Below are positions 23,193-32,251 of a stretch of 37,278 nt of DNA, one piece after another. A model generated the notes under the pieces. The model saw only the letters and a list, made by a program, of their open reading frames with translations. It had not been told where the DNA came from and ran no database searches. The DNA is taken from the IMG/VR virus record IMGVR_UViG_2872698443_000007. One strand, given 5' to 3'. The stretch is from a virus. Lineage: Duplodnaviria > Heunggongvirae > Uroviricota > Caudoviricetes. Every line of letters begins with the position of its first letter. Positions within the stretch are counted from its first letter, which is position 1. Position numbers and translations under genes: made by a program.

Positions 23193-24959
23193 ATGAACAC
23201 CACACTGACACCCGCAGATCTCGATCCCCGTCGGCAGGCCATGCTGCTGTACTTTCAGGGATACCGCGTAGCCCGCATTGCTGAAATGCTGGGCGAGAAA
23301 GTTGCAACCGTTCACAGCTGGAAAAAACGCGACAAGTGGGGTGACTATGGGCCACTGGATCAGATGCAGCTCACCACCGCCGCACGCTACTGCCAGCTCA
23401 TTATGAAGGAGCACAAAGAAGGGAAAGATTTCAAAGAGATTGACCTGCTGGCGCGCCAGTCTGAGCGCCACGCGCGGATCGGCAAGTTTAACAATGGCGG
23501 CAACGAAGCCGACTTAAACCCTAACGTCGCCAACCGCAACAAAGGCCCGCGCCGTCAGCCGGAAAAAAATGTCTTCACCGATGAACAGATTGAGAAGCTG
23601 GAAGAAATCTTCCATTCCTCCATGTTCAACTACCAGCGCCACTGGTGGGAAGCCGGAAAAACCAACCGCATCCGCAACCTGCTGAAGTCACGCCAGATCG
23701 GCGCGACCTTTTACTTTGCCCGTGAAGCCCTGATTGACGCTCTGCTTACCGGACGTAACCAGATTTTCCTTTCCGCCAGCAAGGCACAGGCCCACGTCTT
23801 TAAGCAGTACATCATCGACTTCGCCAAAGAAGTGGAAGTGGAGCTGAAAGGCGATCCGATGGTGCTTCCCAACGGGGCCACACTGTATTTCCTCGGCACC
23901 AATGCCCGCACGGCCCAGAGTTACCACGGCAACCTGTATCTGGATGAATATTTCTGGATACCGAAATTCCAGGAGCTGCGCAAAGTGGCTTCCGGTATGG
24001 CTATTCACAAAAAATGGCGACAAACCTATTTTTCCACGCCATCCAGCCTGACACACAGTGCTTATCCGTTCTGGTCCGGTGCGCTATTCAACCGTGGGCG
24101 CAATAAAGCCGACAAGGTGGACATAGACCTGTCCCACAGCAATCTGGCTCCAGGCCTGCTGTGTGCAGACGGGCAATACCGCCAGATAGTCACCGTGGAA
24201 GATGCGGTGCGCGGCGGCTGTAACCTGTTCGACCTTGACCAGTTGCGCATGGAATACAGCCCGGACGAATACCAGAACCTGCTGATGTGTGAATTCGTGG
24301 ACGATCTCGCGTCCGTGTTCCCGCTCAGCGAGCTGCAGGCGTGCATGGTGGACAGCTGGGAAGTCTGGACCGACTTTCATGCACTGGCCCTGCGCCCGTT
24401 TGGCTGGCGCGAAGTGTGGATCGGTTATGACCCGGCAAAAGGTACGCAAAACGGCGACAGCGCCGGGTGCGTGGTGGTGGCTCCGCCAGCCGTGCCGGGC
24501 GGTAAGTTCCGCATTCTTGAGCGTCACCAGTGGCGCGGGATGGACTTCCGTGCCCAGGCGGACGCCATCAAAAAACTGACTGAACAGTACAACGTGACCT
24601 ATATCGGTATCGACTCGACAGGTGTCGGTCACGGGGTTTATGAGAACGTAAAAGCGTTCTTTCCTGCCGTCCGGGAGTTTGTCTACAACCCCAACGTTAA
24701 AAACGCCCTGGTACTCAAGGCCTACGACATTATCAGCCACCGCCGTCTGGAGTTTGACGCCGGACACACCGACATTGCGCAGTCATTCATGGCAATCCGT
24801 CGCGCAACCACCGCCAGTGGCAACCGCCCGACCTATGAAGCCAGCCGCAGCGAAGAAGCCAGCCACGCCGATCTGGCCTGGGCAACGATGCACGCACTGT
24901 TTAACGAACCGCTGCAGGGCGAGTCCGCCAATACCAGCAATATTGTGGAGATTTTTTGA
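23193..24959 (+). CDS. P: terminase large (ATPase) subunit P
   Basis: 588 aa; divergent from O; followed by the portal gene. Confidence 0.8.
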   Translation: MNTTLTPADLDPRRQAMLLYFQGYRVARIAEMLGEKVATVHSWKKRDKWGDYGPLDQMQLTTAARYCQLIMKEHKEGKDFKEIDLLARQSERHARIGKFNNGGNEADLNPNVANRNKGPRRQPEKNVFTDEQIEKLEEIFHSSMFNYQRHWWEAGKTNRIRNLLKSRQIGATFYFAREALIDALLTGRNQIFLSASKAQAHVFKQYIIDFAKEVEVELKGDPMVLPNGATLYFLGTNARTAQSYHGNLYLDEYFWIPKFQELRKVASGMAIHKKWRQTYFSTPSSLTHSAYPFWSGALFNRGRNKADKVDIDLSHSNLAPGLLCADGQYRQIVTVEDAVRGGCNLFDLDQLRMEYSPDEYQNLLMCEFVDDLASVFPLSELQACMVDSWEVWTDFHALALRPFGWREVWIGYDPAKGTQNGDSAGCVVVAPPAVPGGKFRILERHQWRGMDFRAQADAIKKLTEQYNVTYIGIDSTGVGHGVYENVKAFFPAVREFVYNPNVKNALVLKAYDIISHRRLEFDAGHTDIAQSFMAIRRATTASGNRPTYEASRSEEASHADLAWATMHALFNEPLQGESANTSNIVEIF

Positions 24960-25990
24960 TGGGAAAGAGTAAGAAAAACCGCACTGCGGCGACGAATCAG
25001 ATCCAGCATAAAAACCAAACTTCAGCCGAAGCATTCAGCTTCGGCGATCCCGTTCCTGTTCTGGACCGCCGAGAATTACTGGACTATGTGGAATGCGTAC
25101 AGATGGACCGTTGGTATGAGCCGCCCGTCAGCTTTGACGGACTGGCGCGCACCTTCCGCGCTGCCGTGCATCACAGTTCCCCGATTGCAGTAAAGTGCAA
25201 CATTCTGACCAGTACCTATATCCCTCATCCTTTGCTCAGCCAGCAGGCTTTTTCGCGTTTTGTGCAGGACTATCTGGTATTTGGCAACGCCTATCTGGAG
25301 AAACGCACGAACCGCTTCGGTGAAGTGATCGCCCTTGAACCTGCGCTGGCAAAATACACCCGACGCGGATTAGACCTGGATACCTACTGGTTTGTGCAAT
25401 ACGGTATGACAACCCAGCCGTATCAGTTCACGAAAGGCAGCATTTTTCATCTGATGGAACCGGATATTAATCAGGAGATCTACGGTCTGCCCGGCTATCT
25501 TTCTGCCATTCCGTCAGCCCTGCTCAACGAGTCCGCCACGCTGTTCCGTCGCAAGTATTACATTAACGGCAGTCATGCGGGCTTTATCATGTACATGACC
25601 GATGCCGCGCAAAACCAGGAGGATGTGAACAACCTCCGCAATGCGATGAAAAGCGCCAAAGGTCCAGGCAACTTCCGCAACCTGTTTATGTACTCGCCTA
25701 ACGGCAAAAAGGACGGGCTTCAGATCATCCCATTGTCAGAAGTCGCGGCGAAGGATGAATTTCTTAATATCAAGAACGTGAGTCGGGATGACATGATGGC
25801 AGCGCACCGCGTGCCGCCTCAGATGATGGGGATTATGCCTAATAATGTTGGGGGGTTTGGGGATGTGGAGAAGGCTAGTCGTGTTTTTGTTCGGAACGAG
25901 CTGATGCCTCTACAAAAAAGATTCCAAGAAGTAAATGAATACTTTGACGGGAACATAATCAGCTTTGAAGAATACAAACTGACCATCTAA
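24956..25990 (+). CDS. Q: portal protein Q
   Basis: 344 aa (same length as P2 Q as I recall); ATGA overlap with P. Confidence 0.8.
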   Translation: MMGKSKKNRTAATNQIQHKNQTSAEAFSFGDPVPVLDRRELLDYVECVQMDRWYEPPVSFDGLARTFRAAVHHSSPIAVKCNILTSTYIPHPLLSQQAFSRFVQDYLVFGNAYLEKRTNRFGEVIALEPALAKYTRRGLDLDTYWFVQYGMTTQPYQFTKGSIFHLMEPDINQEIYGLPGYLSAIPSALLNESATLFRRKYYINGSHAGFIMYMTDAAQNQEDVNNLRNAMKSAKGPGNFRNLFMYSPNGKKDGLQIIPLSEVAAKDEFLNIKNVSRDDMMAAHRVPPQMMGIMPNNVGGFGDVEKASRVFVRNELMPLQKRFQEVNEYFDGNIISFEEYKLTI

Positions 25991-26029: not shown

Positions 26030-27796
26030 TTAATTATTATCGTATAACTCCTGAATTTTTGCTGGATTAGCAAAAAACCTTGCAGGATAAGCATTTGGAT
26101 AATTATCTTCGATATAATTTTCTGTCCTAGCTATTAATGCTGCTAAATTAGCAGTGATTTGTGCTGAATCAGGAGCAAGCTGAATGGTACTATTCTGTAA
26201 ATCTGACACCATATTCAACAGCACTGAAGCATAATATCTATTACCATGAGTTATTATTAAATGACGGCGACTATGCGTTGATTTATCTGTAGCTGCTAAA
26301 GTTGAGCTAATAGCACGTTCTATCACACGAAAATGGTTAACAGCATTTATTAACTTGATACCACTTAATCGCGGATTGAAAATTGTTCTATATAATGACC
26401 CTTCAAAATTTTCAAAAAACCTACCACGATTAGATTTTAAAGTTGCAACTATAGTATTATTTTTACTTAAGCAAGCTAGAGCATTCAAAGCCTCATCGAG
26501 ATCAATTACCTTGGCGTTAGACTGTAAATAATCCTCATCGGTTCGCAATAATTGGTATTGATACCCTTCAAGCACAAGCTCTCTCGCCAGTCTATGCTGA
26601 TCGGGTTGTTGTGAAGCAAAATCTCTTCCTAAAACTCTATTCTGGAAATTATTAGCTCTGGTTATTGCATTGGCATTGAGATCATTTACATCATTATTAA
26701 TTTCAATAAAACGAACAGGGACTTTAACTTGATAAATTCTATCGCCTAGCACATCCATAACACTGCCTAAACTACTCACAGTTTGCGCGCCGTTGATCAC
26801 ACTCACATCTTTAAAATCGAAAACCCCTCTTTCAGTGCCTGCAGCTGCGTTTCTTCTGTGAGGAATTAACTCGTTCACTAGTAACGTAATACCGTTATTG
26901 TAAAACCAAAACATTTCTGGATTATCAATTGCAGTTTTTTTTATTTCTTCGTTAACATCTGTCTTACCAAGCATATTTCTTATGTTTTTCGTAAAAAGGC
27001 GGGTTCCATATTGTTTCCACCAATTCCCAACCTGGTCCCCAGCTAAAGTTCCATAAAATGCTCTGTAAGGTTCATTAATAAACCCATAGCGTTCAACTTC
27101 TACGCCATCCAAATCAATTTGACCTCTTGAGCCAGTCTGCAACCAATGGACTAAATCCTCTGATGAAATCAAATGAACTTGAAACCCCCATTCTTCTTTC
27201 GGTGATTCTGTCGGGGTAAACGACGCTTCATTTAATTCACGTTGCCACTCTTGCATATCACGTAAAATATCTTCTGAGGCACCTTTTTTCCCTGTGTGAG
27301 TCATAGCGAAGATAAATTTATAATCAAATGAATTAAGAGCTGCGCTTATATCTGAACTCTTATCTTGAAGAATCTGGTCAAAAAGTTCATATCGTTCATT
27401 CTGAAGTTTTTCACAAGCATCCTTGAAGCACACAAAATCAGGTCTGCTCCAAGTACCATTTCCAGCCTGATTAAATTTGGACTGAACAACTACAACAATT
27501 TTTTCACTATGATTTATGACTATGCCATCAATGCCTCCATCCTCAGAACTGTCGCATACAGACTCACCTGCATGCTTTTCATCAACACCACCAAGTTGAT
27601 ACATCGTAAACGCCGCCAGAGCCCTACTTGCCATTTTAATATTGTAATCTTGTTGACTGGGTTGGCACTCTCGCTTATGAACATAGTCTTCAAACCTTTC
27701 TCTCAAAACACTACCAAGCCTTAGAGCTATAACTTGCGCCGTCGCCGCTGCAGCTACAGCGTTATCCTCAACTCGGAGATCTACAACGAATGCCAT
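26030..27796 (-). CDS. cargo protein with N-terminal Mrr-type PD-(D/E)xK nuclease signature; function unknown, candidate defence effector
   Basis: ~588 aa from the first ATG at 27796 (AAGGA ribosome-binding site 8 nt upstream); the ORF track extends to a TTG at 27823. Motif ...EDGGIDGIVINHSEKIVVVVQSKF... fits the restriction-endonuclease D-x(n)-Q/E-x-K pattern. No Walker A motif. AT-rich relative to flanking phage genes. Confidence 0.6.
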   Translation of the reverse strand: MAFVVDLRVEDNAVAAAATAQVIALRLGSVLRERFEDYVHKRECQPSQQDYNIKMASRALAAFTMYQLGGVDEKHAGESVCDSSEDGGIDGIVINHSEKIVVVVQSKFNQAGNGTWSRPDFVCFKDACEKLQNERYELFDQILQDKSSDISAALNSFDYKFIFAMTHTGKKGASEDILRDMQEWQRELNEASFTPTESPKEEWGFQVHLISSEDLVHWLQTGSRGQIDLDGVEVERYGFINEPYRAFYGTLAGDQVGNWWKQYGTRLFTKNIRNMLGKTDVNEEIKKTAIDNPEMFWFYNNGITLLVNELIPHRRNAAAGTERGVFDFKDVSVINGAQTVSSLGSVMDVLGDRIYQVKVPVRFIEINNDVNDLNANAITRANNFQNRVLGRDFASQQPDQHRLARELVLEGYQYQLLRTDEDYLQSNAKVIDLDEALNALACLSKNNTIVATLKSNRGRFFENFEGSLYRTIFNPRLSGIKLINAVNHFRVIERAISSTLAATDKSTHSRRHLIITHGNRYYASVLLNMVSDLQNSTIQLAPDSAQITANLAALIARTENYIEDNYPNAYPARFFANPAKIQELYDNN

Positions 27797-27976
27797 TAAT
27801 TTTTCCTTATAGAATATGTACAACGTTAGCAGTGATTAAAAGGTTACTCGTTAAGCGGAAATTGTACTACAACATTCTACTAAATATGGATATATCAATG
27901 AGTAAGAACTCATCTTTGCTAACTCACATACATTGTTAAAAATACTTAGCTTCGCTGTTCACCCCGTCGCCGCGCG

Positions 27977-27995
27977 CTCGTATCCCCGCCACGCC
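27977..27995 (-). other. putative cos site (cohesive end)
   Basis: Minus strand reads GGCGTGGCGGGGATACGAG. The first 13 nt match my recollection of the 186 cohesive end GGCGTGGCGGGGAAAGCAT (P2: GGCGAGGCGGGGAAAGCAC); overall 14 of 19 vs 186. Orientation points toward Q, as in P2. Confidence 0.5.
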
Positions 27996-28042
27996 TGCCC
28001 GCTTTATGTAGTGGTTTTCATGCGCCTGCATGACATAAGCAA

Positions 28043-28066
28043 AGGCCCGCCATTCCTAGCGGGCCT
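28043..28066 (-). terminator. hairpin downstream of the 290-aa cargo gene (possible terminator)
   Basis: Perfect 8-bp stem AGGCCCGC / GCGGGCCT with an 8-nt loop, ~100 bp past the gene stop; the following T-run is weak. Confidence 0.35.
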
Positions 28067-28167
28067 CAGCTAAAACGATCCTCAAACGATCATGCGGATT
28101 CATGCGGCATAGTCATGCACTTGTGTGGTTACGAAGGAATATAGTTGCGAAAATCGATTAAAATGCC

Positions 28168-29040
28168 TTAAGCTCTCTTAATCAACCCCTTATGCGTTGC
28201 TTTGGTAAGATAAGCTAATTCTTTAGGCCCCTTATCTCTAAAGCCCACCCATTCTGGTTGGATTTTTATAAAACTTGGAATTGCGGTTGCCAAGGCTGTA
28301 ACCATACCGGGAATAATACCGCCTGAATAACCAGCAATAGCAGCATGGTACAACGGTTTTAAAAATTCCATAACCTGCCCACCATCTACTTCTGGATTGG
28401 CTTTGACTCCCATTCTGATAGGATTTCTCCATTTCCCTTCGATAGCTTTATCAAGATTAACTACAGCCTCTTGTAATAAAGAAAAATTTTTAGCCCTCGT
28501 TAGATTAGGGTCTCTAGAATAAAGGACTTCAGTATACAGTTTTTCTAAGTACTCATGTAACGCATTAAGATCATCCTGACAATCATCTTTAAAACGTAAT
28601 ATATCTTCTATATGAGCATCTTTATCAGGAATTCTCAGAACATTAAACAACTCCAATCTCAACTGAAGGGCCGTTTTCTGTTCTTTATCATATATTAAAT
28701 TTTCCCCTGTTTGATGAAAGTGCCAATAAGTAGCAGGCTCGTTCTTCCTGAATTCATCCAATGTCTGCAACTGAAATTCCGTATATAAAAATGGAAAGTC
28801 TTGGATATTCAGCATACCATCATGTTTCATAATAGGTCTACGTAATACCCCATTATCTAATAATTCTTTTTCTTTAGGCACAATCGAGTGAATATTTTCA
28901 CTATCTAGAATAACCACATCATCCCAGTAAAAGCAGAAATAATTAATATCCTGCTCAGTTAAACCTGCCCCAAGATAGACCGTACTATTATTTCTATGAA
29001 AACTCATTTCATTAGGATTAGCTACAATGCCACGTTTCAT
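28168..29040 (-). CDS. hypothetical cargo protein, function unknown (position of P2 tin/old)
   Basis: ~290 aa from the ATG at 29040 (AAGGAG ribosome-binding site 5 nt upstream): MKRGIVANPNEMSFHRNNSTVYLGAGLTEQ... Strongly AT-rich. C-terminal hydrophobic stretch GGIIPGMVTALATAIPSFI. No recognisable catalytic motif. Confidence 0.6.
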   Translation of the reverse strand: MKRGIVANPNEMSFHRNNSTVYLGAGLTEQDINYFCFYWDDVVILDSENIHSIVPKEKELLDNGVLRRPIMKHDGMLNIQDFPFLYTEFQLQTLDEFRKNEPATYWHFHQTGENLIYDKEQKTALQLRLELFNVLRIPDKDAHIEDILRFKDDCQDDLNALHEYLEKLYTEVLYSRDPNLTRAKNFSLLQEAVVNLDKAIEGKWRNPIRMGVKANPEVDGGQVMEFLKPLYHAAIAGYSGGIIPGMVTALATAIPSFIKIQPEWVGFRDKGPKELAYLTKATHKGLIKRA

Positions 29041-29251
29041 TCTTGCTCCTTGATAAGCATACACATTTTAAGAATGACATATATTCTAATAATTTCAATA
29101 CATTATGAGTTATAACTAAAAGTGCAGCATAGGTCTCGCCCTGATAGATAATCAAGTGATTACTGTCTTTTTACTTATGGTTAACGCCTCTCAAGGCTCG
29201 CGGTTCAACCTTGCTGACGCCAGAAGCAGGTTCAGACGCCAGCAACGTTTC

Positions 29252-29485
29252 TTAATGCAGCCAGCTGTCGTCTTCCCACACCTTCTGCATAATTTTCATC
29301 ACTTGTTTTCTTTCTTCGTCCAGTTGCAATCCGGTAAGTTCCACACCGTTAGAGCTACCTTTGCGGATACGAATTACCGTTTTGGGATACAGGGGGCGCA
29401 GATTGCGGTAAAGCTCGGATTCAAGGGCGTCCAGTGTAGACTGGCTAATCTTCTGCTCTTTATCGATCATTATTTCAATGCGCAT
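29252..29485 (-). CDS. DinI-family protein
   Basis: 77 aa from the ATG at 29485 (GAGGTG ribosome-binding site): MRIEIMIDKEQKISQSTLDALESELYRNLRPLYPKTVIRIR...WEDDSWLH, resembling DinI in length and pattern (MRIE..., acidic C-terminus with W). Confidence 0.7.
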   Translation of the reverse strand: MRIEIMIDKEQKISQSTLDALESELYRNLRPLYPKTVIRIRKGSSNGVELTGLQLDEERKQVMKIMQKVWEDDSWLH

Positions 29486-29495
29486 AAAAGTCACC

Positions 29496-29684
29496 TCAGC
29501 TGATGACATCCATTGAGCGGTTGTATTCGTGGGTTCTGATTTTTGCCATGAGTTCATCTGTCAGTTCAGAAACCCACTGCAGAGCCAGCCCCTTCTCTTC
29601 ATCACTACACTCACTAGCCGCTACAAGCTTAAGAAAAAAATCAATGCGCTGGAGCTTCAAAGACTCCAAAAAATAGTCCTGCAT
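29496..29684 (-). CDS. small protein, first gene of the LexA-controlled operon; candidate Tum-like antirepressor
   Basis: 62 aa, AGGAGG ribosome-binding site; directly downstream of a LexA box and upstream of the dinI-like gene. Confidence 0.5.
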   Translation of the reverse strand: MQDYFLESLKLQRIDFFLKLVAASECSDEEKGLALQWVSELTDELMAKIRTHEYNRSMDVIS

Positions 29685-29724
29685 CTTTCCTCCTATGACA
29701 CCAAAGCAATACTGTATACATAAC

Positions 29725-29744
29725 CACTGTTTATATTTACAGTA
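29725..29744. promoter_or_regulatory. LexA operator (SOS box)
   Basis: CACTGTTTATATTTACAGTA has CTGT-N8-ACAG with an AT-rich spacer, close to the consensus TACTGTATATATATACAGTA. Lies in the promoter region of the 62-aa/DinI-like operon. Confidence 0.7.
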
Positions 29745-29836: not shown

Positions 29837-32251
29837 TTAATACAGGTTTCGCCACTTATCATCTTCCTGCAAACGCTGGTTCCGATAGAAGATACGCAGG
29901 CCTGCTCCTGACGGAATACTGCCGCCGCGAAGGAGTAAATCGACCTCTTTCTCGCTGCCATCAAATCCCCTGGACTTCAGTTCATACACGAGCTGCAGTC
30001 GCTGATGGTCTGTAATTCGCTGTTTGTAGTCTTTACGCCGTTTCGGTTTCACCAGGCGTAACCTTGCTGCCAGTTCCCGGCGCTCTTTTTTGCTCATACT
30101 GTGCAGGTAATCGTGCAACTCCTTGTCATCCATGCGGGTGATATCCGTTCTGGTATCTCCATCAGCTGATTTGTCTTTCCCTTGTTGGTACAAATTTTCA
30201 GCAAGGGGACAGTTATTGCCACGAGTCCAAGGGGCGCAAGCGCCCTGGTCGGCTGCCGCCTCCTGAACGTCAACGGCCTTACGAACCATTTTCCACTTCA
30301 CTGCATGAGTGCAGATCTTGCCCTCTGCAATGGGTGACCAGATGCCATAAATACGAATACCGTGATCACCATAGGCGGTCGGCTCTTCGTTGATTTCATA
30401 AGCGGTTCTGATCAAGTGATATTTGCGGGGAACCAACACGCCGCCCTGCTTCATAATGTAGGTGGCAAAACAGCCAGCATCAGCAGCAGCCAGAATGGCA
30501 TCAAGACGCGGATCATCCAGTACCGGCGCACCTGCTTTTTTGTCACCCTGCTGCCTTGCCGCCTGACCAGCCAGCAATCGCAGTTCACGGTAAGCCTGAC
30601 GCCCCGGAATGCCAAAGAAGCGGAATTGCTGAACACGATGCAGAGACGCCCAGGCATTAACGTATTCAGCGTTATCACGCAGGGATTTACCCGTTTCCTT
30701 GCTGATCTCGCCAGCCAGACCACGCCCGTCAATGTTCTTACTGATGTATTTCGCGATGTAGCTTGTCGGCGTTCCTTTGCGCGGGTTAATCAGCTCAGAC
30801 TTAAAGCGTGGCCCCGTGTTATTGCCCAGTTCCTCGCGGTCTTCACGGATGGCAAACTTACGCAGTAATGCAGTGATGGCGCGGCGGTCTTTTTTACGCA
30901 TGAAGCACATGAGATGCCAGTGCACAGTACCGTCATGATGCGGCTCAGCCACCCGCACGCCATACCACCGCAATCCGGCTTTGTGCATCGCCTTACGAAA
31001 TGCAGCAAACATGCCGACCAGATAATCACTGCTTTGTCTTACCGTCGCATTTGTCCAGGTCGGGTTTGGTCTGCCGTTATTGAGCGTGGAATGGAAACGT
31101 GACGGACAGGTGATGGTGTAGAAAACGGCGCAGTCACCGCGCATTTCCGCGATAAGCTCCAGACCTTTAACGCAGGCCATCATCTCATTGCGGCGATGTG
31201 CCGGGTTGCTGCTGCTGGCGTTTACCACATCTTCCATATCCAGCGTGTCTCCGTCTTCGTTCACCAGTTCATGAGAACGGAAAAACTCCAGCGACTTGCG
31301 GCGCTGCTCACGTTTATGCGTCACTGCTTCATAGCTGACATAGGGAGATGCTTTTTTGCTGACCAGACAGACAGCACGCAACTGCTCTTCCCGCCATTCG
31401 CAACGCATCTTCCACAATTTTCGATACCACCAGTCGGCGCAAAGCATACGTGCCAGCGAACCCGGTATGAGTTCATAGGGCACAGGTTTGCGGCGGTTTC
31501 TTTTCCGACGAAGTTTCTCAAACGCAGGCGGGATAACATCCAGACGCAGGGTTTCCGCAGCCACCTTTTCCCATGTCTTGCGGATTTCTTCTGGCTTAAC
31601 GTCATCGGTGGCGTACAAATCACCACAAGCGGCCTCAAGACACATGCTCATATGCGCTGCTACCAGGGTGGACAGGCGTTTCACCTGATCCTGGCTCATT
31701 TCAGGCAGGATCAGCAGCCCCTCCAGCCCTTGATGGCTTGCCATAAAACGGAAAGAAACAGATAGCTGACTGTCACGTACACAATCCAGTCGCTCCAGGC
31801 ATGGCTTAATCGTCTCACGCAAATAGCGGGAATAAGCCTTTGGCCTGCCCAGGCTGCTGAAGTATTCGATACGTTGCATCAGCGGCTTGCTGATATGAGA
31901 AGGCTGGGCGCTGACATCTGCCAGAATGACCATGTCCGGGTTAAAACGCTGCTGCTCATGCGCCAGCTTTGCCCGGCTAATGAGCTTATCCTGCTCCATT
32001 TCGCGCTGGACAGGATCACGGGATTCATTAAAGAAATAACGCTCCCAGACCTGCTCACTCAGTGCCTCGCGGCGCAGTTGTTCCTGCTCGTTATCGGCAG
32101 CGTACAGAGTGATCAGGTTTGAAAGTGCAGACTCCGGCGCAACTTCCGCCGGATCCAGATAAGGGTTAATGGCCTTTTTCGGGCCGTTCCATGAAAATGC
32201 TGCGGCAGCCTCGTTAAAGCCGCTAGAGTTGCTCATATCGTCATGACTCAT
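29837..32251 (-). CDS. A: replication initiation endonuclease A (rolling-circle)
   Basis: 804-aa protein in the early operon downstream of dam. Confidence 0.75.

What the first reader, a model, noticed from the sequence alone, without database searches (positions are those of the whole stretch)
28168..29064. Second cargo gene at the right-end (tin/old) position: ~290-aa protein of unknown function
It sits between the putative cos and the LexA-controlled operon, exactly where P2 carries old and tin. It is strongly AT-rich (sample 60-nt lines I counted are roughly 33-38% GC, against visibly GC-rich structural genes), has its own AAGGAG ribosome-binding site, and shows no recognisable catalytic or nucleotide-binding motif. 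A C-terminal hydrophobic stretch (GGIIPGMVTALATAIPSFI) could be a membrane helix. It may act alone or with the 590-aa protein, which lies on the same strand 371 bp downstream.
Basis: partly seen in the sequence, partly recalled or inferred. Interest (0 to 1): 0.8.

Follow-up and report, generated by a model that had tools for sequence, protein, structure and literature searches.

The report
Untested DUF6236 cargo gene in prophage
This is a real, intact, horizontally acquired gene of unknown function (Pfam family DUF6236) in the known defence-gene hotspot of a P2/186-like E. coli prophage; it travels alone on many phages and small plasmids, so it is a reasonable but untested candidate anti-phage gene, and a 2022 survey had already listed it.

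Summary
The gene is on the minus strand and starts at the ATG at 29040 (290 aa, AAGGAG ribosome-binding site), not at the GTG at 29064. It is 36% GC against 55% for the structural genes. It fills a 1.1-kb variable slot between a LexA-controlled tum/DinI-like operon and cos.

It belongs to Pfam DUF6236 (E 4e-21) and RefSeq already annotates it as such. Rousset et al. 2022 listed it as P2-hotspot "system #125, DUF6236, 23 occurrences" but did not test it. No paper in the searched library mentions the family in its text.

It does not depend on the neighbouring AIPR/AbiU-like gene. In 22 E. coli genomes the same gene is found alone, or across cos from AIPR, a PIN protein or an ABC-3C system. Relatives are single cargo genes in other temperate phages and the only cargo on a ~4.5-kb plasmid.

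A confident AlphaFold model (pLDDT 85) has no relative in the PDB or in viral structure predictions. The gene is under purifying selection (dN/dS about 0.13).

Best guess, about 50%: a stand-alone anti-phage protein. Its conserved, uncharged, Gly/Ala/Ser-rich loop of about 38 residues may act on the membrane; that step is inferred only. Interest is moderate: a testable candidate of an expected kind.

The parts
28168..29040 (-). DUF6236-family protein gene, 290 aa (ATG 29040, stop TAA 28168-28170)
   Evidence: ORF. Pfam PF19749 at E 4.4e-21 and 75.8 bits against a cut-off of 26.2. PHROG 23128 at E 6.5e-32. RefSeq CDS 'DUF6236 family protein' with the same ends. Homologues start at the same codon.
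29046..29051 (-). Ribosome-binding site AAGGAG, 5 nt before the ATG
   Evidence: Read from the sequence. Conserved as AAGGAG or AGG in homologous loci.
29041..29241 (-). AT-rich 5' region that travels with the gene. It contains a -10-like TAGAAT at 29083-29088 (TATAAT in the TUM3755 allele). The promoter is not resolved.
   Evidence: About 95 nt upstream are conserved with the 83%-identical homologue in L021. No consensus sigma-70 promoter or terminator-like site was reported in this interval, so read-through from the upstream LexA-controlled operon is possible.
28120..29241 (.). Variable cargo slot 1, between the DinI/tum-like gene and the conserved cos block (the tin/old position)
   Evidence: In about 1260 E. 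coli genomes the flanks match (query 2072-2220 = window 27971-28119, and query 3343 onward = window 29242 onward) while the content differs: P-loop NTPase, HEPN, CdiI/RNase A-like, DUF4145, DUF2971, HNH, or empty.
27977..27995 (-). cos-like cohesive-end sequence GGCGTGGCGGGGATACGAG
   Evidence: Pattern match with 0 expected by chance. It resembles the cos sequences in cloned P4-like loci (GGCGAGGCGGGGAAAGCAC and GGCGTGGCGGGGAGAGCAT) printed in Rousset Table S2A. It lies in the block conserved across P2-like prophages.
28044..28066 (-). G+C-rich hairpin (AGGCCCGC / GCGGGCCT) about 100 nt after the stop codon, inside the conserved cos block. A possible transcription stop with a weak U-tract.
   Evidence: Sequence. 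The fold of 28030-28170 gives -41.1 kcal/mol, z -2.3. The terminator scan did not call it.
26030..27796 (-). Independent neighbour in cargo slot 2 (cos to portal gene Q): an AIPR-family / AbiU-like protein, 588 aa
   Evidence: Pfam AIPR at E 1.5e-31. PADLOC AbiU at 5.8e-24. PHROG 1841 'Abi alpha-like' at 4.5e-196. RefSeq 'AIPR family protein'.
29252..29742 (-). Upstream conserved operon: LexA box (29727-29742), orf62 (29496-29684) and a DinI-like, tum-like gene (29252-29485)
   Evidence: Perfect CTGTN8ACAG match. Pfam DinI at E 1.3e-22. RefSeq CDSs. In phage 186, induction works through Tum expressed from the LexA-regulated p95 promoter (PMC7708051).

Best explanation
The gene is an intact, horizontally acquired, self-contained accessory gene of the DUF6236 family. 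It sits in the cos-proximal gpA-gpQ diversity hotspot of a 186/P2-like E. coli prophage, in the slot where P2 carries tin and old.

Shown: it is real, conserved as a protein, foreign in base composition, and swapped in and out of the slot as a single-gene cassette. It is independent of the AIPR gene on the other side of cos.

Inferred, about 0.5-0.55: it protects the lysogen or the mobile element against other phages, by superinfection exclusion or abortive infection, and it acts as a single protein.

More speculative, about 0.25: the protein has a soluble alpha/beta plus helical-hairpin body. The hypervariable N-terminal beta-hairpin (residues 11-30) would be the recognition surface. The conserved, charge-poor, Gly/Ala/Ser/Thr-rich loop of about 38 residues (217-256), which AlphaFold cannot place, would be a latent membrane-associating, glycine-zipper-like element. 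It would either anchor the protein at the inner membrane or perturb the membrane when triggered.

Expression may come from its own AT-rich upstream region, by read-through from the LexA-controlled tum operon, or both. This is unresolved.
For: Real and constrained:
- Pfam DUF6236 hit.
- 1006 clusters at 50% identity with E<=1e-3, almost all single-domain proteins of about 285 aa.
- dN/dS 0.126 against the 83%-identical homologue at dS 0.77, and 0.14-0.16 in other informative pairs.
- 21 of 22 E. coli alleles are intact.

Cargo in the hotspot:
- GC is 36% against 55%.
- The slot is variable in about 1260 genomes.
- Rousset et al. 2022 define gpA-gpQ as a defence hotspot and list 'DUF6236, 23 occurrences' as system #125.
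- The 2026 preprint 10.64898/2026.02.27.708500 found that 6 of 8 randomly chosen loci of unknown function, taken from the analogous hotspot of P4 satellites (not P2), were active.

Stand-alone:
- It is the sole cargo between DinI and the portal gene in L016-18 and L081.
- Its cos-side neighbours vary: AIPR, PIN, ABC-3C, an AAA_15/21 ATPase.
- There is no conserved neighbour in 56 viral loci; the largest neighbour cluster is HNH in 12 of 56.
- The upstream small ORF is not conserved.

It shuttles between mobile elements as defence genes do:
- The lysis-to-terminase junction of three kinds of lambdoid prophage.
- The end of a Vibrio prophage record, after the tail-fibre genes.
- The tail-to-lysis region of a siphophage-like contig whose lysis genes look Gram-positive.
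- Sole cargo of a circular Rep3/MobA plasmid of about 4.5 kb.
- 21 bp downstream of a HEPN/Abi_2-like gene on an Acinetobacter plasmid.
- Kept, together with an ATPase gene, in a Hafnia P2 remnant that has lost nearly everything else.

Loop: across 125 homologues it is 45% G/A/S/T against 22% elsewhere, and 9% charged against 26%. [GAS]xxx[GAS]xxx[GAS] motifs number 2.2 against 0.26 expected. The hydrophobic maximum falls at the same position in nearly all of the 79 homologues in alignment A2. pLDDT is below 50 at residues 242-254 in an otherwise confident model.
Against: - There is no functional evidence at all, and no similarity to any known defence protein. PADLOC gave no hit to the DUF6236 domain; the hits in two relatives are to a fused SEC-C motif only.
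- The hotspot also carries non-defence cargo, such as partition systems and cytolethal distending toxin. Position alone is therefore weak evidence.
- In Rousset et al., only 3 of 8 tested P2-hotspot systems scored as defence.
- The loop is only marginally hydrophobic (mean 19-residue Kyte-Doolittle maximum 1.54). Phobius predicted no transmembrane domain.
- No fold relative was found to support any mechanism.
- One E. coli allele has a premature stop.
- Being co-oriented with SOS or late operons fits a role in the phage's own lytic cycle equally well.
Confidence: 0.5

Rival explanations
1. It is a non-defence accessory or fitness gene: a lysogenic-conversion or element-maintenance function. 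Examples would be altering host envelope physiology or stabilising the carrier element, with benefit to the host or the mobile element but not through phage resistance.
For: The P2 hotspot also holds partition systems and a cytolethal distending toxin. The gene is the sole cargo on a tiny plasmid and is kept in a decayed prophage; both fit any beneficial or addictive function. There is no homology to defence proteins.
Against: It has no signal peptide, lipobox or classical transmembrane helix, so it does not look like a surface or virulence factor. It occurs across very different hosts and element types. Its immediate neighbours across cos in E. coli are all defence-type genes, and it sits next to a HEPN/Abi_2-like gene on a plasmid.
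Confidence: 0.25
2. It serves the phage's own lytic cycle. Expressed by read-through from the LexA-controlled tum operon (or from late operons in lambdoid phages), it would help induction, packaging or lysis timing, or counteract host defences (anti-defence).
For: It is co-oriented with the SOS-controlled orf62 and DinI/tum-like operon, lies 211 bp downstream of it, and has no canonical terminator in between. In lambdoid prophages it is co-oriented with, and lies between, the lysis and terminase genes. In those prophages and in the P2-like ones it is next to the packaging site.
Against: It is dispensable: present in 22 of about 1260 E. coli genomes with this kind of prophage. It occurs on plasmids that have no phage genes. 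It is retained in prophage remnants that can no longer grow lytically. In the Vibrio and siphophage-like contexts it is not near packaging genes. At 290 aa it is larger than most known anti-defence proteins (my own knowledge).
Confidence: 0.15
3. It is one half of a two-gene system with the 588-aa AIPR/AbiU-like protein encoded 371 bp downstream.
For: Same strand and adjacent in this window; both are AT-rich.
Against: The cos site and a block conserved in all P2-like prophages separate the two genes. Only 3 of 22 E. coli genomes with DUF6236 carry this AIPR gene, 12 carry a PIN gene instead, and others carry ABC-3C or nothing. The same AIPR protein pairs with TIR/SEFIR cargo in other loci. AIPR/AbiU is catalogued as a single-gene system.
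Confidence: 0.03
4. It is a spurious or decaying ORF that makes no functional protein.
For: One allele (strain LF4-1) carries a nonsense mutation at codon 136.
Against: The family is large, dN/dS is about 0.13, the start codon and ribosome-binding site are conserved, the AlphaFold model is confident, and 21 of 22 alleles are intact.
Confidence: 0.01

Closest known systems
P2 tin and old (phage-exclusion genes at the right end of P2)
   Same: Same genomic position, between the replication gene A region and cos. Same status as non-essential, prophage-carried cargo in the gpA-gpQ hotspot.
   Different: No sequence relationship was detected. A tblastn search of 50,697 phage genomes found only two Vibrio prophage records. 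There is no ATPase, TOPRIM or other recognisable domain. Its activity is unknown.
The DUF4238 single-gene system from the same P2 hotspot (Rousset et al. 2022; protects against T7)
   Same: A single protein of about 290 aa, defined only by a DUF, carried in the same hotspot. It shows that such genes can be complete defence systems.
   Different: A different Pfam family, and the visible N-terminal sequence is unrelated. No profile comparison was run. DUF6236 was not among the systems tested.
AIPR / AbiU-like abortive-infection protein (the neighbour at 26030-27796)
   Same: AT-rich single-gene cargo next to cos in the same prophage.
   Different: An unrelated family in a separate slot, and it assorts independently.
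Lambdoid 'moron' genes at the lysis-to-cos/terminase junction (for example lambda bor) and membrane-associated superinfection-exclusion proteins (SieA/SieB, Imm). Comparison from my own knowledge.
   Same: DUF6236 relatives occupy exactly this junction in three kinds of lambdoid prophage. SieB is itself listed among P2-hotspot cargo.
   Different: DUF6236 has no lipobox, signal peptide or classical transmembrane helix. Whether it associates with the membrane is only a hypothesis.
Plasmid-borne single-gene Abi systems of lactococci. Comparison from my own knowledge.
   Same: A stand-alone gene carried as the cargo of small plasmids and prophages. Adjacent to an Abi_2/HEPN-like gene on one plasmid.
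   Different: No homology to any Abi model in Pfam or PADLOC.

Membership tests
Pfam DUF6236 (PF19749) | Whole-protein HMM score above the curated gathering threshold (26.2 bits) | tested here: met
   75.8 bits, E 4.4e-21, residues 34-289. All 125 aligned relatives also match. RefSeq gives it the same name.
Cargo of the P2-like gpA-gpQ hotspot (Rousset et al. 2022) | Located between the replication gene gpA and the portal gene gpQ, next to cos | tested here: met
   gpA at 29837-32251, portal gene at 24959-25990, cos at 27977-27995. Definition from the paper.
Cargo of the P2-like gpA-gpQ hotspot (Rousset et al. 2022) | Presence or absence, and replacement by unrelated genes, between conserved flanks in related prophages | tested here: met
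   About 1260 E. coli genomes share the flanks and 22 carry this gene; the others carry different cargo or none. Listed as system #125 with 23 occurrences.
Anti-phage defence system (functional class) | Reduces phage plating or propagation when expressed | not testable with these tools
   Absent from the tables of tested systems in Rousset et al.. No paper in the searched library mentions DUF6236 or its accession numbers.
Anti-phage defence system (functional class) | Homology to a known or candidate defence protein (PADLOC-DB 2.0.0) | tested here: not met
   No hit for the window protein. Among 125 relatives the only hits are to a fused SEC-C motif in two proteins.
Two-gene system with AIPR/AbiU | Consistent co-occurrence and adjacency of the two genes | tested here: not met
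   3 of 22 genomes. The two are separated by the conserved cos block, and both have alternative partners.
Integral membrane / Sie-type exclusion protein | At least one predicted transmembrane helix or a signal/lipoprotein sequence | tested here: inconclusive
   The best 19-residue Kyte-Doolittle mean is 1.63 (family mean 1.54; 33 of 79 reach 1.6). Phobius was negative in Rousset Table S5B. The loop is nevertheless conserved in composition as uncharged and rich in small residues. No dedicated topology predictor was available.

The most novel reading that the evidence does not exclude
DUF6236 is a new family of single-protein anti-phage immunity, with a fold that has no solved relative. One 290-aa polypeptide would combine a hypervariable recognition hairpin with a latent glycine-zipper-like membrane effector. 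The family would spread as a one-gene cassette among P2-like, lambdoid and other temperate phages and small plasmids, possibly in more than one bacterial phylum.
Probability: 0.2. Interest if true: 0.65.

Novelty: new member of a known kind. Interest (0 to 1): 0.42.

Why it matters
If DUF6236 proves to be a defence gene, it would add a compact, one-gene immune module with no known fold relative. It is found on prophages and plasmids of Enterobacteriaceae, Vibrio and Acinetobacter, and on a contig whose lysis genes look Gram-positive. That would bear on phage-therapy host range and on the study of how single proteins both sense and respond to infection.

Its distribution across about 1000 sequence clusters means that one experiment would annotate many genomes.

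The finding does not change how the field sees P2 hotspots, which are already known to be rich in unknown defence genes. The gene's existence and position were already catalogued.

Tried and rejected
- Sequence searches for a known function all came back with DUF6236 only or with nothing: Pfam, NCBIfam, PHROGs, PADLOC and PDB sequence profiles.
- The afdb50 library was not available.
- PADLOC hits to PDC-S12 and CBASS E2 in two relatives looked promising but map to a fused N-terminal SEC-C zinc motif, not to the DUF6236 domain.
- Scans for informative domain fusions in longer family members found none.
- A small ORF overlapping the start codon (45 aa here, 42 aa in L019/L020) was considered as a partner or antitoxin. 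It was rejected because the upstream regions are unrelated.
- A search for a conserved neighbour gene in 56 viral loci found none.
- The scan of one genome per species returned a single locus and added nothing. The third word-index protein search added few distant relatives.
- No sigma-70 consensus promoter could be assigned upstream. No Rfam family matches the region.
- The Gifsy-encoded defence protein GiPD474 was checked as a possible published homologue. It is an ATPase-domain protein, so it is unrelated.

Full report
**What is there.** The window is a P2/186-like prophage, 100% identical to one in E. coli S163-2. On the minus strand, in order, lie:
- the replication gene A (29837-32251);
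- a perfect LexA box (29727-29742);
- a 62-aa ORF and a DinI-like gene (Pfam DinI, E 1e-22);
- the gene in question;
- a conserved block containing a hairpin and the cos-like sequence GGCGTGGCGGGGATACGAG (27977-27995);
- an AIPR/AbiU-like gene (26030-27796);
- the portal gene Q, on the other strand.

The ORF listed at 28168-29064 starts at a GTG. The real start is the ATG at 29040, which gives 290 aa. It is preceded by AAGGAG at a 5-nt spacing, it matches the RefSeq CDS, and every homologue starts there. GC is 36.2% (GC3 29%), against 55.3% for the structural genes.

**It is a real protein gene.** It matches Pfam DUF6236 well above threshold and PHROG 23128, which has no known function. An exhaustive profile search found 1006 clusters at 50% identity with E <= 1e-3. 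Nearly all are single-domain proteins of 280-300 aa aligned end to end. dN/dS is 0.126 against an 83%-identical homologue (dS 0.77) and 0.14-0.16 in other informative pairs. The closest divergent pair (87% identity) gives 0.60, with the changes concentrated in residues 11-30 and 231-240. Of 22 complete E. coli genomes carrying the gene, 21 have it intact and one has a nonsense codon at position 136.

**It is cargo in a known hotspot, and it was already catalogued.** In about 1260 of 5426 complete E. coli genomes the two flanks (window 27971-28119 and 29242 onward) are conserved while the content between them varies. The slot holds P-loop NTPases, HEPN proteins, a CdiI/RNase A-like pair, DUF4145, DUF2971, HNH, or nothing.

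Rousset et al. 2022 (PMC9122126) defined the gpA-gpQ interval of P2-like phages as a hotspot of anti-phage systems next to cos. The hotspot also contains non-defence cargo. Their Table S5B lists "system 125, DUF6236, 23 occurrences", with a protein differing from the window's at one residue. It records no signal peptide, transmembrane domain or note. The sequence is absent from their tables of tested systems. No paper in the searched library mentions DUF6236, PF19749 or the two RefSeq protein accessions in its text. The gene is known to exist; its function is not known.

**It works without the AIPR gene.** cos and its conserved block separate two independent cargo slots. Among the 22 E. coli genomes, this AIPR gene accompanies DUF6236 in 3 and a PIN-domain gene does so in 12. 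An ABC-three-component system does so in at least one, and in at least one the second slot is empty. The same AIPR protein is found with TIR/SEFIR cargo in other loci. In a P2-like prophage carrying a 60%-identical homologue, DUF6236 is the only gene between DinI and the portal gene. A small ORF overlapping the start codon is not conserved.

**Where else the family occurs.**
- Relatives of about 30% identity sit between the lysis cassette and the small terminase, Nu1-like or HNH genes. This holds in three kinds of lambdoid prophage in Klebsiella, E. coli and Citrobacter.
- In 56 IMG/VR loci, at least 28 have lysis genes among the three ORFs just upstream and 24 have packaging genes among the three just downstream. 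No neighbour family recurs in more than 12 loci.
- Other relatives lie at the end of a Vibrio prophage record, after the tail-fibre genes, and between the tail and lysis genes of a siphophage-like contig whose lysis genes look Gram-positive.
- One lies 21 bp downstream of a RiboL-PSP-HEPN/Abi_2-like gene on a 16-kb Acinetobacter plasmid.
- One is the only cargo of a circular plasmid of about 4.5 kb that otherwise encodes only Rep3 and MobA.
- In Hafnia alvei, a P2 remnant has been reduced to an integrase fragment, DUF6236, an AAA_15/21 ATPase gene, a portal fragment and ogr.

A one-gene cassette that moves among unrelated mobile elements, and that survives when its carrier decays, fits a self-sufficient function useful to the host or the element. 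This is typical of defence genes but does not prove that role.

**What the protein looks like.** With 125 diverse homologues, AlphaFold2 gave a confident model (pLDDT 85.1, pTM 0.83).
- It has an N-terminal beta-meander and an alpha/beta region (residues 1-136), then a long helical hairpin (144-201).
- A strand follows (209-216), then a helix (223-239) and an unplaced stretch (242-254, pLDDT below 50). Two strands (257-282) then return to the core.
- Foldseek against viral predicted structures gives no hit at E <= 1e-3, and a PDB profile search nothing below E 0.26.
- The AlphaFold-database libraries were not available, so "no known fold" applies only to solved and viral structures.
- Nearly invariant residues are R3, G4, Y38-W39-D40, W106, P138, F150-K151, Y169, D177 and Y277. 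They match no catalytic motif that I recognise.

**The C-terminal hydrophobic stretch.** It is not a classical transmembrane helix. Its best 19-residue Kyte-Doolittle mean is 1.63 (family mean 1.54), it contains prolines, and Phobius was negative. It is nevertheless a conserved feature. In 125 homologues, the roughly 38 residues between the two conserved strands have these properties:

| Property | Loop | Rest of protein |
|---|---|---|
| G/A/S/T content | 45% | 22% |
| Charged residues | 9% | 26% |
| [GAS]xxx[GAS]xxx[GAS] motifs | 2.2 | 0.26 (expected at the same density) |

The sequence itself is among the most variable in the protein. Conserved composition without conserved sequence, together with low model confidence, fits a segment that inserts into or lies on a membrane, or that changes conformation. 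That reading is an inference.

**Most likely mechanism, and how sure.**
- Cargo, and a real protein: about 0.95-0.99.
- Acts as a single gene: about 0.85.
- Anti-phage function (exclusion or abortive infection): about 0.5-0.55. This rests on the hotspot, the defence-type neighbours, the shuttling between mobile elements and the retention in remnants. The 6-of-8 success rate for unknown loci comes from the analogous P4 hotspot, not from P2. Against it stand the 3-of-8 rate for tested P2 loci and the known non-defence cargo.
- Membrane-directed action through the Gly/Ala/Ser-rich loop, with the variable 11-30 hairpin as the specificity element: about 0.25.

Expression is unresolved. There is no consensus sigma-70 promoter in the 211-bp upstream region. 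A -10-like TAGAAT is present (TATAAT in another allele), and about 95 nt of upstream sequence travel with the gene. No canonical terminator separates the gene from the LexA-controlled tum-like operon. In phage 186 the corresponding promoter, p95, is derepressed by the SOS response (PMC7708051). The gene could therefore be switched on, or up, during SOS.

**Rivals.**
- A non-defence fitness or maintenance function: 0.25.
- A role in the phage's own lytic cycle or in anti-defence: 0.15. Dispensability, plasmid carriage and retention in dead prophages argue against this.
- A two-gene system with AIPR: 0.03, contradicted by the distribution.
- A spurious ORF: 0.01.

**Verdict.** The link to the AIPR gene is not supported, and the membrane-helix idea survives only in a weaker form. 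The gene is a sound, cheap-to-test candidate for a new single-gene defence family. However, it is one of many such unknowns in a hotspot that is already well described, and it had already been listed there. Interest is moderate (0.42).

Noticed in passing
window 26030-27796 (-): A second, independent cargo slot lies between cos and the portal gene Q. Here it holds an AIPR-family, AbiU-like protein (588 aa, 38% GC). In other E. coli prophages with the same DUF6236 gene this slot holds a PIN-domain gene, an ABC-three-component system, or nothing.
   Followed up: partly
window 29252-29742 (-): A perfect LexA box (CTGTTTATATTTACAG) lies upstream of a 62-aa ORF and a DinI-like gene. The arrangement resembles the LexA-regulated p95-tum antirepressor module of phage 186, so this prophage is probably SOS-inducible. 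No canonical terminator lies between this operon and the DUF6236 gene.
   Followed up: partly
L007-L009 (Hafnia alvei), gene at 6001-6876: A P2-like prophage has been reduced to about 4.3 kb: an integrase fragment, DUF6236 (69% identical), an AAA_15/AAA_21 ATPase gene, a portal fragment and ogr. Only the two hotspot cargo genes remain intact. This looks like domestication of the cargo.
   Followed up: partly
L087-L089 (metagenomic contigs), gene at about 1914-2768 of L087: A circular plasmid of about 4.5 kb (terminal overlaps of 141 and 55 nt) encodes only a Rep3 initiator, a MobA/MobL relaxase, a 34-aa ORF and a DUF6236 protein (27% identical). DUF6236 is its sole cargo.
   Followed up: partly
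L085 4934-6882 (Acinetobacter lwoffii plasmid pALWED1.3): A 345-aa protein with weak RiboL-PSP-HEPN and Abi_2 matches ends 21 bp before a DUF6236 gene on the same strand. This may be a two-gene arrangement in a distant branch of the family.
   Followed up: no
Proteins P0155 and P0261 (distant family members): Some DUF6236 proteins carry an N-terminal SEC-C zinc-binding motif. This motif alone produces PADLOC hits to PDC-S12 and to CBASS E2 models. So the same tag occurs on defence-associated proteins; its meaning is unknown.
   Followed up: partly
L083 3669-4541 (E. coli LF4-1): One of 22 E. coli alleles has a single A-to-T change that creates a stop at codon 136, so the gene is annotated as two ORFs. 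This could be real decay or an assembly error.
   Followed up: yes
Window protein residues 11-30 and 231-250 (about 28951-29010 and 28291-28350): Differences from the 87%-identical homologue P0002 cluster in the second and third beta-strands and in the hydrophobic loop, and dN/dS for this pair is 0.60. Across the family, these regions and a few others (for example residues 71-90 and 261-270) are the most variable. They may determine specificity, or they may be a recombination patch.
   Followed up: partly
L054, L058, L059, L064, L067, L069, L070, L074 and others, just downstream of the DUF6236 gene: In about 10 lambdoid viral contigs the DUF6236 gene is followed by a 485-aa protein with no Pfam match. 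In several it is followed in turn by a conserved 197-aa protein, before the terminase genes. These are further unknown cargo at the same junction.
   Followed up: no
L002 (E. coli TUM3755) 1536-2756: The P2-like prophage carrying DUF6236 and PIN in this strain is degraded: the D gene is truncated and fused to a truncated terminase gene, and the structural genes are deleted. The hotspot cargo and the early region remain intact.
   Followed up: no
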